A stretch of 64,000 nucleotides of DNA, taken from NCBI RefSeq assembly GCF_009914755.1, contig NC_060925.1; one strand, given 5' to 3'. Below the pieces are notes generated by a model, which was given only the letters and a program-made list of their open reading frames with translations, ran no database searches and was not told the origin of the DNA. Positions 36,501-39,500 of this stretch are shown piece by piece. The DNA is from the human T2T-CHM13v2.0 reference genome, Homo sapiens. A program made the position numbers and the translations under genes. Positions within the stretch are counted from its first letter, which is position 1; each line of letters opens with the position of its first letter.

Positions 36501-39500
36501 TTTTGCTGATTTGGAGCCAAATACACTCATTAGTCACGTTAGATTCAGTTACTATTCTAGTGTCATCTGTCATTTCCTTTGTAGTAAAGACCAATAGAGT
36601 TGAGTCCAAGGACACTGGGCAGGGTTGGTGGGGGTGGTGGTGGGAGGGGGGCTGTTGGTGAGGAAAGAGAGAATGAGGATGGTGAGAGAAAAGGGCAAAT
36701 GGGTGCATTTGAGAAGAAAGATTGTGTAAGCTATAAAAATGATTTGATGTTGATCAACTTATTTGACCAATTATTTGCTGTTGTTCAGCTCAAAATAGTG
36801 CTTTGAATCTTAAAAGTGAATATAATTTTTGAAATGAAATTTAATCTACCATAGACTGAACACTAAAAAGCATATTCTGTAGGCAAAGTAAATATAGTTT
36901 GCCCTCCAATCTCAGATGATAATAGTACAGGCATATTTCCTGTGATGGAGAAATGTCTACATATCTGTTATATCTACTATAAACTAGGTAAATGTCCTTC
37001 CCATTAACCACATATGTTAATGTTCAACTTCCTTCTGAGACTCAATTTACTCATCTAAAAAATGAAAGTGAACTCTAAGATGCTTTCTAGCTCTAAAATA
37101 ACATAATTCTGTCACCATATTTGAATGCTCAACGATCAAAACATTTAAAATCGAGCATGATTGGGTTGAAACACTTAAGAAGCCTCTCAAACCTGTCAAA
37201 AAATTTTATTTGAGCATTGTGATACTCTAAATATATTTCTTCCTTTTTCTTTCGAAGAAAACAGGACAAATAAAACATGCATTTGTCAAAAATTTGTGAC
37301 ATAAGGAAGCCATATACAAAATGCAATTAATATCTCCTATTTGTAACTCACTTCATAACCAGTATGTATGTCATTGTGAAACTATAATGTAATTTTAATT
37401 GCTCATGTTTCTATTAACTGTGTTACCATATCTTTTCCCCTTCAAGGATTTCTTGCTGGTACTCTATTAATTGGTACCCTAATTCTAGTCATTGGACTAT
37501 GGAAAATCAGAGTGAGCAGAAATTCTGATGATTTTTAAAAATTTATTCCTAGTTTATTTCCAGTAAAATTTGGTACTGTATCAGTAGATGACTCTCTTAG
37601 CTTTATTTAAATTTTGGCGTGTCTCTGTATTCATTTTTGTCTGTAATTACTATCCTGGATTAACAGACTTCATGTCTGTTTTTTCTCAATATATTCAAAG
37701 GCGCATTTCAAAGCAAAGTGACTTGAAGTCTCATTTTGTGATCTATTAATCCACTGATTTTTTTCCACTCAGTGTAATTTATGATAGTATCTAGTGTTGC
37801 ACAGAAGCAAAGAAATCTAGGAAAAATCAACCTCTAACATACTGTGAAATTGCCTGTGATTAGGGCTTTTTCTCACTTATATTAATAGATGCCAGTCCAG
37901 CTCAAAACAGCACAGTGGTTAAGGCAGCAGACAAATGGGGGAAATATAGTACCTACCTCATATGATTATAATCATATATCAAATGAGTTGCCACCTGTCA
38001 AGTGCTTAGAACATTGCTTGGCACATAGTAAGCACTCAGATATTAAAACAACAACAGCACACACACACATCAGTATTATTTAAAATATCTAATCTGCATT
38101 GAATATACATAATGTTAAGTATAAATGTCACGATTGGCTCTGATGTGTCCTGTAGACAGATGATGATTTAAATCGACCCTCTTCTGTTTTGTAGTTTTAA
38201 CTGTTCAGAAAACTAGTTGTGGAATTTATACAAACTTGAGTTATTTCTAAGCTGCCCTAATGCCTGTCCGTTTTTCCCATTAATAAGAAAACTATTAATT
38301 TAATGCTGTTATTAAATTGTCTGTTTTAATTCTTTAGATGATGTGACCTATCTCCTTTTTACCCTCTACAATTTTTCTACTTAAATTAAGAATATTACTT
38401 AAGCCTATTATAAGTTAAAGCATGTAAATATTCTTTAACTCACTAAATGAGTCAGTCTTGTAGAAAAATATTTGACCATTAGGTCCAGGGGAGTGATTAA
38501 TAATTTTTACAGGCATTTGTTTAATATCAACAAAATATTCTAGCTGTCATGATAGCAAATATAGTAAGACATAACTTTTTCTCCAGATATATCAGAAACG
38601 TTTTAGGAATGTGATTTAGAGCCTAGCAAAAACTCACAGTTAGTACTAAGTCATCTAAAGTGAGTTGGTATGGAAGCATCAGCAAAGCTACTCTGAAAAA
38701 AAATAAAACCACCAATCTTACGTACTTTCTTGTACTTGTTCCAACTTTCCTTTTGAAATACTGTTATCAGTTTATCAAGTTATAAAGTATCAATGTATAG
38801 AGTATTATCAATTTACCAAAGCTACTGCTTTGAGACTCCCTGGATCGGTGGGAATGGAGACTGGGCGGGGGAGGGCGGAGGGTGGGCGGGGGCAGGGCAG
38901 CAAGATGTGATAAGTTTACCAGGTGCTGTCTCTTGGCTTTCATCAGTTTCTTTACATACTTTGGTAAGGTGATTGGCTGTGATACTTGTATGTCCTATTA
39001 AGGACATAAAGTACTGGAACATCGAAGGAGGGAATACAGTAATTTCTGCTTATCCTCGGTTGGGGGGCAGGGTGTTTCAAGAACCCCCAGTGAATGCTTG
39101 AAACAACAGATAGTGCCTAACCCTATATATGCTGTGTTTTTTCCTGTATGTACATACCTATGAGATAAAGTTTAATTTATAAATGAGGCACAGTAAGAGA
39201 TTAACACCAACGAATAATCAATTAGAACAATTTATTGTAGCAAAAGTTATGTGAATGGGGTCTCTCTCTCTCTCAAAATATCTTATTGTATTGTACTCAC
39301 CTATTTTCAGATTGCAGTTGACTGTGGGTAACTGAAACCACAGATAAGCAGACTAATGTATTTGTTTTGAATTGTATTTTGGGGTTTTGCAGTGAACTTA
39401 ATTGCTTATTTTCTGAATTAGAGGGAAAGTCATGCAAACTCCTAAGAAAGAATTTGTCTTTTTTATGTGCACATAAAAAACACTCCACTTGCTTTATTTT

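What the first reader, a model, noticed from the sequence alone, without database searches (positions are those of the whole stretch)
37447..37511. Hidden transmembrane exon in the last intron of GPI-anchored human CD55
Seen in sequence: non-repeat intronic DNA has a branch-like tattaac, a pyrimidine tract with AG (tcttttccccttcaag|) and a donor (AGA|gtgagc) bounding 65 nt. Entered in phase 1 from exon 9, it gives [26 protein letters not shown]: 22 uncharged residues followed by a basic stop-transfer. Established: human DAF is known as GPI-anchored or soluble, while guinea pig, rodents and pig make transmembrane DAF. From recall, the segment resembles the TM regions of RCA paralogues CR1 (GTLSGTIFFILL...WIILKHRKG) and CR2 (GIAAGLILL...). 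Inference: this is the ancestral DAF TM exon. A shifted frame at its 3' end (GAC TAT GGA AAA TCA GA|, DYGKS, phase 2, from 37495) would connect to the tail exon at 39818, suggesting a small frameshifting deletion. Splicing exon 9 > 37447-37511 > terminal exon would still give a 388-aa type-I membrane protein ending WKIRGTRVSR* (stop 40867-69 in the last exon, so not an NMD target). Such a GPI-independent CD55 would matter in GPI-deficient (PNH) cells and could be a splice-switching target.
Basis: partly seen in the sequence, partly recalled or inferred. Interest (0 to 1): 0.92.

Follow-up and report, generated by a model that had tools for sequence, protein, structure and literature searches.

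The report
Relic transmembrane exon in human CD55
The last intron of the human CD55 gene still holds a frame-shifted but splice-ready copy of the membrane-spanning exon that other mammals use to make a form of this complement regulator without a lipid anchor; whether people ever use it is untested.

Summary
Window 37447-37511 is a 65-nt single-copy, non-repeat segment with a usable acceptor and donor. Entered in phase 1 from CD55 exon 9, it reads as a 22-residue uncharged stretch followed by K-I-R.

It is homologous to the transmembrane (TM) exon of CD55 TM isoforms in many non-primate mammals: 31 of 123 fetched CD55 proteins hit it by tblastn. It lies in the right order, before a relic cytoplasmic-tail exon (39818-39923) and the last exon.

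Compared with those species, the human exon has a net loss of 8 nt. Twelve coding bases are replaced by ATTG at 37491-37494. The old frame survives as DYGKS at 37495-37509. Lemur, orangutan and chimpanzee models share the shifted frame, so the deletion is probably primate-ancestral.

CR1 and CR2 have the same mini-exon, TM-exon and tail-exon plan.

A chimpanzee model (X14) uses an 81-nt version. No human RefSeq transcript uses the exon, and I found no paper describing it.

Present-day human use and any selective maintenance remain untested. The PNH and therapy idea is speculation.

The parts
20696..20716 (+). CD55 exon 9 (21-nt mini-exon). It ends in phase 1 and is the upstream splice partner of the relic exon.
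   Evidence: RefSeq transcripts; CDS length 1081 nt up to this exon. CR1 and CR2 have a 24-nt mini-exon in the same phase.
37412..37418 (+). Branch-point-like tattaac, 29 nt upstream of the acceptor AG.
   Evidence: Read directly. Consensus resemblance only; not tested.
37426..37446 (+). Pyrimidine tract and acceptor AG (37445-46).
   Evidence: PWM score 8.7 bits, the 41st percentile of 307 real chr1 acceptors.
37447..37511 (+). Relic transmembrane exon, 65 nt, entered in phase 1 and left in phase 0. It encodes a 22-residue uncharged stretch and then K-I-R.
   Evidence: tblastn hits from orangutan X5 (E 4e-8), chimpanzee X14 (E 3e-11), lemur X2 (E 7e-4) and 28 other proteins.
37491..37494 (+). 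ATTG: the scar of the net 8-nt deletion. It stands where other mammals have 12 nt coding K-I-F-W.
   Evidence: frame a, scar, frame b against 11 non-primate TM isoforms.
37495..37511 (+). Old reading frame (DYGKS plus GA, phase 2 exit) that once led into the cytoplasmic tail.
   Evidence: 5/5 identity to rabbit, marmot and squirrel.
37512..37517 (+). Donor gtgagc.
   Evidence: PWM 6.2 bits, the 23rd percentile of 303 real donors. The same junction is implied by orangutan model P0012.
39818..39923 (+). Relic cytoplasmic-tail exon A (106 nt). The acceptor is ..ctattcag, the ORF is 39819-39917, the stop TAA is at 39918-20 and the donor is AAG|gtatat.
   Evidence: tblastn from 16 of 123 proteins. 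20/33 identical to marmot. BLASTP to the CR1 tail exon gives E 8e-4. PWM acceptor at the 50th and donor at the 10th percentile.
40849..40972 (+). Start of the last exon, read in three ways. Frame 40851 is the GPI signal (stop ends at 40913). Frame 40850 is the 40-residue tail B used by TM isoforms of other mammals and by the human Alu-exon isoform (stop 40970-72). Frame 40849 reads GTRVSR then a stop (40867-69) and is reached from the 65-nt relic exon.

Best explanation
Window 37447-37511 is the human orthologue of the CD55 (DAF) transmembrane exon. With the tail exon at 39818-39923 and the second reading frame of the last exon, it forms the anchor module that many mammals use to make transmembrane CD55. 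CR1 and CR2 use the same module constitutively.

On the primate stem the exon lost a net 8 nt. Its exit phase changed from 2 to 0, and both ancestral cytoplasmic tails went out of frame.

The hydrophobic core, the acceptor and the donor survive. The exon can therefore still be spliced between exon 9 and the last exon. The product would be a 388-aa type-I membrane protein: four SCRs, the Ser/Thr stalk, the TM helix and a roughly 10-residue basic tail. It would have no GPI signal.

Shown: the homology, the frameshift, the exon plan and the predicted product. Also shown: orangutan and chimpanzee gene models include the exon.

Inferred: in humans it is a cryptic exon included rarely if at all. I infer that its survival needs no selection and that it has no established function today.
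For: Sequence, phase and product.

Homology: 31 of 123 fetched CD55 proteins hit 37317-37601 at E<1. 16 of 123 hit the tail exon, best E 4e-9. 40 of 123 carry the ancestral TM...GKSG motif and 3 of 123 carry the shifted G-L-W-K-[IL]-R reading; these three are Pan, Pongo and Lemur.

Frame analysis: TM core 11/15 to narwhal, DYGKS 5/5 to rabbit, marmot and squirrel, and a 4-nt scar in place of 12 nt. A beaked-whale model (P0046) with an independent shift reads W-K-I-R and then L-L, as human does. This shows where that reading comes from.

Exon plan: CR1 and CR2 have a 24-nt mini-exon (phase 1), a 76-nt TM exon (phase 1 to 2) and a tail exon (CR1 105 nt). CD55 has 21 nt, then 65 nt (73 before the deletion), then 106 nt. 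The CR1 tail is similar at E 8e-4.

Splice competence: acceptor at the 41st and donor at the 23rd percentile of real sites. That is equal to or better than several annotated alternative exons in the same intron.

Use in apes: orangutan X5 (P0012) ends with the TM stretch, K-I-R and six residues of the last exon in the 40849 frame. Chimpanzee X14 (P0010) has an 81-nt version.

Single copy and not a repeat.

Function of a TM-anchored DAF: engineered DAF-TM protected cells as well as GPI-DAF (PMC2118896, abstract).
Against: No human transcript uses the exon. 0 of 10 RefSeq CD55 transcripts in the window has a junction at 37447 or 37511; 2 of 10 merely span it in an unspliced 12-kb block.

The region-limited protein search returned only the orangutan and chimpanzee cluster representatives, 2 hits among 71 candidates. 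614 candidates were left out unseen, and clusters at 90% identity can hide isoforms.

The donor is below average, with A at -1, and decoys of equal strength are common.

Nothing here shows selection. Identities of about 50-70% to non-primates, and 1 difference each to chimpanzee and orangutan, are what neutral drift on the primate line could give (my estimate, not a computed test). The tail exon A ORF is equally intact although it is unreachable in frame.

No DNA of other mammals was available. The 8-nt size and the sharing with lemur rest on protein models, with one Gnomon model per species.

PNH blood cells are described as lacking or having decreased CD55 (PMC7078534, abstract in the listing). 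This argues against appreciable TM isoform in blood cells.

That Gnomon alternative isoforms require transcript support is recalled, not checked.
Confidence: 0.8

Rival explanations
1. The exon is a maintained, functional alternative exon in primates including humans. After the frameshift it was kept because it still yields a transmembrane, GPI-independent CD55 with a short basic tail, expressed in particular tissues or conditions.
For: The acceptor, the donor and the open hydrophobic frame are intact in human, chimpanzee, orangutan and lemur, although the shift is probably older than their split. Ape models include the exon. Lemur X2 returns to the ancestral C-terminus after the shifted W-K-L-R, which would need a second, compensating length change. 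The stop lies in the last exon, so the message should escape NMD. TM-anchored DAF works (PMC2118896, abstract).
Against: There is no human transcript or protein. The donor is weakish. No constraint could be measured. The tail exon A ORF is just as well preserved without being usable, so preservation is weak evidence. No Old or New World monkey representative among the 123 proteins carries the exon. PNH cells are described as lacking or having decreased CD55 (listing).
Confidence: 0.12
2. The exon acts as a regulatory decoy. Its splice sites compete with the last exon or with the other alternative exons of the intron and so tune the output of the GPI form. The protein it could encode would be irrelevant.
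For: The intron holds at least five other annotated alternative exons that are used one at a time. Hatje et al. 2017 mention a cluster of four mutually exclusive exons in CD55 with possible docker and selector RNA pairing (PMC5740500, passage).
Against: No evidence ties 37447-37511 to that cluster. The figure is in a supplement I could not see. My own RNA duplex scan was uninformative. The exon's homology to a coding TM exon explains its presence fully.
Confidence: 0.03
3. A chance pseudo-exon: T-rich intron sequence that happens to read as a hydrophobic stretch between an AG and a GT.
For: Hydrophobic 19-mers occur in 16 other places in the forward frames of the intron. Equally strong AG and GT decoys are common.
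Against: Specific similarity to the TM exon of CD55 in many mammals, in the right order and phase. The old frame DYGKS is preserved 5/5, and a homologous tail exon lies 2.3 kb downstream. Ape models use it.
Confidence: 0.01

Closest known systems
Transmembrane isoforms of CD55/DAF in non-primate mammals (predicted TM isoforms of cetaceans, sciurids, rabbit, carnivores, equids, hippo, oryx and aardvark fetched here; rat TM-DAF and the mouse Daf2 gene from the literature)
   Same: Same gene. Same position between the mini-exon and the last exon, and same entry phase. The hydrophobic core is similar (up to 11/15). The same downstream tail exon A and the same tail B frame of the last exon. Rat has GPI, TM and secreted forms, and mouse has two genes (PMC12588219, passage).
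   Different: The human exon is 8 nt shorter, leaves in phase 0 instead of 2, and has lost the K-I-F-W...G-K-S-G end and both long cytoplasmic tails. No human transcript is known.
TM and cytoplasmic exon module of the RCA paralogues CR1 and CR2
   Same: A mini-exon in phase 1 (24 nt versus 21 nt), a TM exon from phase 1 to 2 (76 nt versus 73 before the deletion), then a tail exon (CR1 105 nt versus 106 nt). The CR1 tail is similar to relic tail A, 10/23 identical, E 8e-4.
   Different: These are paralogues, not orthologues. Their exons are constitutive and in frame, and the TM sequences are only loosely alike.
NCBI Gnomon models: Pongo abelii CD55 isoform X5 (P0012) and Pan troglodytes isoform X14 (P0010)
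   Same: The same exon. Its TM stretch is 14/15 identical to human and the chimpanzee's is 15/15.
   Different: These are models, not characterised proteins. The chimpanzee version runs 16 nt further (81 nt, in frame), so the GPI signal follows the TM stretch. At the corresponding human position the intron would start with AT, not GT.
Human 'soluble' DAF isoform with the Alu-derived exon (NM_001114752)
   Same: An alternative exon in the same intron that shifts the last exon by +1, as the undeleted TM exon did (118 and 73 are both 1 mod 3). It therefore ends in tail B.
   Different: The exon is Alu-derived, has no hydrophobic anchor and is annotated as expressed.
Genes that make GPI-anchored and transmembrane forms by alternative splicing (for example CD58)
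   Same: It works like this: a choice of 3' exons decides between a GPI signal and a TM helix with a cytoplasmic tail. A CD58 TM isoform is named in a reference title seen.
   Different: The gene family is unrelated. For CD58 both forms are established in humans (recalled).

Membership tests
Orthologue of the CD55/DAF transmembrane exon | Lies in the CD55 gene between the 21-nt mini-exon and the last exon, upstream of the tail exon, on the coding strand | tested here: met
   The order 20696 > 37447 > 39818 > 40849 matches the order of segments in the TM isoforms. Synteny in other genomes could not be checked.
Orthologue of the CD55/DAF transmembrane exon | Entered in phase 1 after the mini-exon | tested here: met
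   The CDS is 1081 nt before it. Reading in that phase gives the hydrophobic stretch.
Orthologue of the CD55/DAF transmembrane exon | Sequence similarity to TM exons of CD55 in other mammals beyond composition | tested here: met
   31 of 123 proteins hit it. Identity is 11/15 to narwhal and 9/15 to rabbit, plus 5/5 for DYGKS in the second frame. E-values for non-primates alone are weak (0.006-0.8) because the segment is short and hydrophobic. The second frame and the tail exon carry the case.
Orthologue of the CD55/DAF transmembrane exon | Uncharged stretch long enough to span a membrane, followed by basic residues | tested here: met
   22 uncharged residues and then K-I-R. The mean Kyte-Doolittle value of the best 19-mer is 2.39 with exon 9 residues and 2.17 for the exon alone, against 1.52 for the GPI signal. 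No dedicated TM predictor was run.
Orthologue of the CD55/DAF transmembrane exon | Leaves in phase 2 through ...G-K-S-G into tail A or tail B | tested here: not met
   A net 8-nt loss gives exit in phase 0. Tail A then reads L-L-stop (384 aa) and the last exon reads GTRVSR-stop (388 aa). It is therefore a frame-shifted relic, not an intact member.
Orthologue of the CD55/DAF transmembrane exon | Included in mature mRNA | not testable with these tools
   No reads or junction sets were available. 0 of 10 human RefSeq transcripts has the junctions. The orangutan and chimpanzee models include it.
RCA-cluster TM/cytoplasmic exon module (CR1, CR2) | Mini-exon (phase 1), then TM exon (phase 1 to 2, about 75 nt), then tail exon (phase 2, about 105 nt) | tested here: met
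   One search gives exon lengths and phases for CR1 and CR2. CD55 has 21 nt, 65 nt (73 before the deletion) and 106 nt.
RCA-cluster TM/cytoplasmic exon module (CR1, CR2) | Sequence similarity of the tail | tested here: met
   BLASTP of relic tail A against the CR1 tail exon: 10/23 identical, E 8e-4 for the single comparison. A whole-genome search with the 33-aa tail found only itself.

The most novel reading that the evidence does not exclude
Humans and other apes still make, in some tissue or condition, a GPI-independent transmembrane CD55 from this exon. The exon has been kept for that purpose since the primate ancestor, despite the frameshift that cut off the old cytoplasmic tails. Such a form would stay on PIGA-deficient cells and could be raised by steering splicing.
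Probability: 0.12. Interest if true: 0.8.

Novelty: new member of a known kind. Interest (0 to 1): 0.6.

Why it matters
Human CD55 is described as GPI-anchored or soluble only. The passages I read name gDAF, sDAF and vDAF1-5. Its loss from GPI-deficient cells is part of PNH.

This work shows that the human gene still carries the ancestral transmembrane anchor module. The TM exon remains splice-competent and open, and ape gene models already include it. A vague species difference thus becomes a concrete, testable question: two named junctions and one 388-aa product.

It also explains the odd C-terminus of the human 'soluble' isoform. That C-terminus is the orphaned cytoplasmic tail of the lost TM form.

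Engineered TM-anchored DAF protects cells as well as GPI-DAF (PMC2118896, abstract). A natural TM isoform would therefore be expected to work. Any therapeutic use is speculative.

Tried and rejected
- **Region-limited protein search** (P0012 residues 493-532), run to find a human protein with the exon. It returned only the orangutan and chimpanzee representatives. A blank means little here, because clusters are at 90% identity and 614 candidates were left out.
- **Whole-genome search with the 33-aa tail** and with 181 nt around the exon. Only self matches came back. The CR1 similarity appeared only in a direct pairwise comparison.
- **RNA duplex scan** for a docker/selector pairing like the one Hatje et al. 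mention for CD55. duplexfold on 400-800-nt pieces gave whole-length, meaningless duplexes, so I dropped it.
- **GPI-signal regex.** It was too narrow (1 hit). I do not use that classification.
- **Selection test.** It was not possible, because no DNA of other mammals is reachable with these tools. My statement that the identities fit neutral drift is an estimate, not a computation.
- **MaxEntScan, SpliceAI and TMHMM** were not available. I used a PWM built from 303 donors and 307 acceptors and Kyte-Doolittle means.
- **Literature.** Nine searches found no paper on a human CD55 TM exon or isoform. The primary papers on guinea pig, rat, pig and mouse DAF gene structure are not in the library. 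Three look-ups by id were not held. The claim 'not in print' therefore holds only for this library.
- **Hatje et al. 2017, Appendix Fig S21** (four mutually exclusive CD55 exons) is a supplement I could not see. I infer that it shows the four annotated one-at-a-time exons (21690, 28746, 31437, 35309), but it might bear on this exon.
- **Rejected: chance pseudo-exon** (see rivals).
- **Rejected: repeat-derived exon**.
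Full report
**What is in the sequence.** Window 37447-37511 is a 65-nt segment of the canonical last intron of CD55 (20717-40848).
- It is preceded by a pyrimidine tract and AG (37445-46) and followed by gtgagc.
- A tattaac lies 29 nt before the AG.
- The canonical CDS up to exon 9 (20696-20716) is 1081 nt, so the next exon is entered in phase 1.
- In that phase the segment reads, from 37446, [22 protein letters not shown].
- Together with L-L-S from exon 9, this gives 22 uncharged residues followed by K-I-R.
- Joining exon 9, this segment and the last exon gives 388 aa. Six residues (GTRVSR) come from the last exon, and the stop is at 40867-69.
- None of the 10 RefSeq CD55 transcripts in the window has a junction at 37447 or 37511. 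Two non-coding models span the region in an unspliced block, 28746-40914.
- The segment is not in a masked repeat: none of 100 bases or more lies between 34471 and 46974. It occurs once in the T2T genome.

**Is it more than chance?** I built position weight matrices from 303 GT donors and 307 AG acceptors of MANE exons in twenty 10-kb stretches of chr1.
- The acceptor scores 8.7 bits, the 41st percentile of real sites.
- The donor scores 6.2 bits, the 23rd percentile.
- Several annotated alternative exons of the same intron are weaker. The acceptor of 35309-35401 is at the 5th percentile, and 28431-28555 is at the 6th and 1st.
- In the intron, 33 of 1093 AG and 34 of 1351 GT score as well, and 13 AG..GT pairs 40-250 nt apart pass both thresholds.
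- 3 of those 13 are open in phase 1: the annotated Alu exon, a T-run and this one. Only this one is hydrophobic.
- Hydrophobic 19-mers as such are frequent in this T-rich intron, with 16 other clusters.

Composition and signals alone would not carry the claim.

**Homology.** A search with the long Ser/Thr exon found primate CD55 proteins. Among them was Pan troglodytes isoform X14 (P0010), which contains this very exon. A full-length search with P0010 gave 273 proteins at E<=1e-10, of which the best 120 were listed. 123 proteins were held in all.

tblastn of all 123 against the window gave these results:
- 31 of 123 have an HSP at E<1 on 37317-37601. They include orangutan X5 (P0012, E 4e-8), chimpanzee X14 (E 3e-11), Lemur catta X2 (P0119, E 7e-4), a beaked whale (E 0.006), and other cetaceans, marmots, squirrels, rabbit and aardvark (E 0.05-0.8).
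- 16 of 123 hit 39795-39983. Marmot and squirrel give E about 6e-7, and the best hit is 4e-9.

The C-termini show that these non-primate proteins are TM isoforms. They have a hydrophobic stretch ending K-I-F-W, then [DGH]-[YS]-G-K-S-G, and then one of two tails. By regex, 40 of 123 carry this motif; a looser regex gives 41. A platypus protein named CR1 (P0084) has the same G-K-S-G and tail A start, so the module is old.

**The frameshift.** Human frame a (37446-37490) matches the TM core: 11/15 to narwhal, 10/15 to right whale, and 9/15 to rabbit, marmot and squirrel.

Human frame b (37495-37509) reads DYGKS. This is 5/5 identical to rabbit, marmot and squirrel.

Between the two frames, human has 4 nt (ATTG, 37491-94) where the others have four codons. 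That is a net loss of 8 nt. The exon went from 73 to 65 nt, and its exit phase went from 2 to 0.

The shifted reading I-G-L-W-K-[IL]-R is shared by human, chimpanzee, orangutan and Lemur catta, which is 3 of the 123 proteins. The deletion therefore most simply predates the split of lemurs and apes. The date of that split is recalled, not computed. Rabbit and sciurids keep the old form.

A beaked-whale model (P0046) with its own shift reads W-K-I-R-L-L. This shows that the human W-K-I-R and the L-L-stop that follows in tail exon A are simply the old G-K-S-G-S-Y read one base off.

The size of the deletion rests on proteins. I had no DNA of other mammals.

**The rest of the module.** Tail exon A is at 39818-39923.
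- It has the acceptor ..ctattcag, a 33-codon open frame (39819-39917), a stop TAA at 39918-20 and the donor AAG|gtatat.
- It is 20/33 identical to marmot, and its stop is at the same codon as in marmot, squirrel and rabbit.
- From the 65-nt exon it is out of frame and gives L-L-stop, 384 aa.

The last exon has a second frame (from 40850) of 40 codons. This is tail B of the TM isoforms of donkey, hyena, woodchuck and others.
- It is 27/40 identical to donkey.
- It is 16/19 identical in the part beyond the GPI stop.

In humans this frame is read by the Alu-exon isoform NM_001114752. The Alu exon's 118 nt shift the frame by +1, exactly as the 73-nt TM exon did. The peculiar C-terminus of human 'soluble' DAF is therefore the orphaned cytoplasmic tail of the TM form. 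I recall, without being able to check, that early guinea pig work may have noted such a similarity.

**Paralogues.** CR1 and CR2 lie 135-300 kb downstream. Each ends with a 24-nt mini-exon (phase 1), a 76-nt TM exon (phase 1 to 2) and a tail exon (CR1 105 nt). CD55 has 21 nt, 73 nt (now 65) and 106 nt in the same phases. Relic tail A and the CR1 tail exon align at 10/23 identity, E 8e-4 for the single comparison.

**Use in apes.** Orangutan X5 (532 aa) ends ...[31 protein letters not shown].

Chimpanzee X14 reads on through the donor for 16 more nt (V-S-R-N-S). It then enters the GPI-signal frame, giving an 81-nt in-frame version. In human the intron would then begin with AT (CTG|atgatt), so that version is not expected in the human reference.

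Lemur X2 goes from W-K-L-R through seven residues into the old end of tail A (V-T-V-G-A-S-D-V-R-S-G-K-L). This needs a second length change or another acceptor.

These are Gnomon models. That such alternative isoforms need transcript support is my recollection of the pipeline, not something I checked.

**What the human product would be.** It would contain the four SCRs, the stalk, a helix-length hydrophobic stretch and a basic tail of about ten residues, with no C-terminal GPI signal. The best 19-mer has a Kyte-Doolittle mean of 2.39, against 1.52 for the GPI signal; the exon alone gives 2.17. This is a type-I membrane protein by inference. The stop is in the last exon, so NMD is not expected by the usual rule. 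Engineered TM versions of human DAF protected cells as well as the GPI form (PMC2118896, abstract).

**Against present-day importance.**
- There is no human transcript.
- There is no human representative in the region search. That search gave 2 hits among 71 candidates, with 614 left out.
- The donor is below average.
- No monkey representative among the 123 proteins has the exon.
- PNH blood cells are described as lacking or having decreased CD55 (abstract of PMC7078534 in the listing).
- The preservation of the exon proves little, since the unusable tail exon A is equally well preserved.

**Literature.** Nine full-text searches found no report of a human CD55 TM exon.
- Passages name the human isoforms gDAF, sDAF and vDAF1-5 (PMC4926246).
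- Passages describe soluble forms by splicing (PMC5833118).
- Passages describe TM forms only for rat and mouse (PMC12588219).
- Hatje et al. 2017 mention a cluster of four mutually exclusive exons in CD55 (PMC5740500, passages). The figure is a supplement I could not see. I infer that it shows the four annotated one-at-a-time exons.
- The primary papers on DAF gene structure in other species are not held, so prior notice of the human relic cannot be excluded.

**Verdict.** This is the frame-shifted, still splice-competent human copy of the ancestral CD55 transmembrane exon, together with its tail exon. I rate it a new member of a known kind, with interest 0.6. The open and testable question is whether it is ever used.

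Noticed in passing
window 40849-40972: The start of the last exon is read in two conserved frames: the GPI signal, and the 40-residue cytoplasmic tail B of TM isoforms. The human tail B frame is 27/40 identical to donkey and 16/19 in the part beyond the GPI stop. It is the C-terminus of the human Alu-exon ('soluble') isoform, whose 118 nt shift the frame as the ancestral 73-nt TM exon did.
   Followed up: partly
window 28415-28570: Relic of another alternative C-terminal exon, a Cys- and basic-rich tail carried by 20 of 123 fetched CD55 proteins from many mammals. The human copy is broken by stops and overlaps the non-coding annotated exon 28431-28555.
   Followed up: partly
window 38586-38639 and 24953-25021: Short similarities to alternative tails of a humpback whale isoform (P0070, E 0.02) and of sifaka isoforms (P0004 and P0005, E 6e-6). 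Each has a stop in human. They may be further decayed alternative 3' exons.
   Followed up: no
window 37512-37530; protein P0010: The chimpanzee model X14 extends the exon by 16 nt to an in-frame 81 nt, which puts a TM stretch in front of the GPI signal. At the matching human position the intron would start with AT, not GT. A chimpanzee-specific base difference is likely but could not be checked.
   Followed up: partly
protein P0119 (Lemur catta isoform X2): After the shifted W-K-L-R the model returns to the ancestral end of tail A. This implies a second, compensating length change or a different acceptor in lemur, and it hints that lemurs may keep a working TM isoform.
   Followed up: no
protein P0046 (Mesoplodon densirostris isoform X2): This model keeps K-I-F-W but then reads G-Q-W-K-I-R-L-L-L-H-T. 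It is an independent one-base shift, or an assembly error, that reproduces the human W-K-I-R-L-L reading.
   Followed up: no
window 34471-46974: 12.5 kb without any masked repeat of 100 bases or more. It covers the relic TM exon, the tail exon, the last exon and 4.7 kb beyond the gene end, in an otherwise repeat-rich intron.
   Followed up: no
window 17989-18705; proteins P0012, P0015-P0017, P0023: Ape and monkey models of 520-570 aa carry a much longer Ser/Thr stalk. In human RefSeq the corresponding intron 7 is annotated as wholly coding in two XM models.
   Followed up: no
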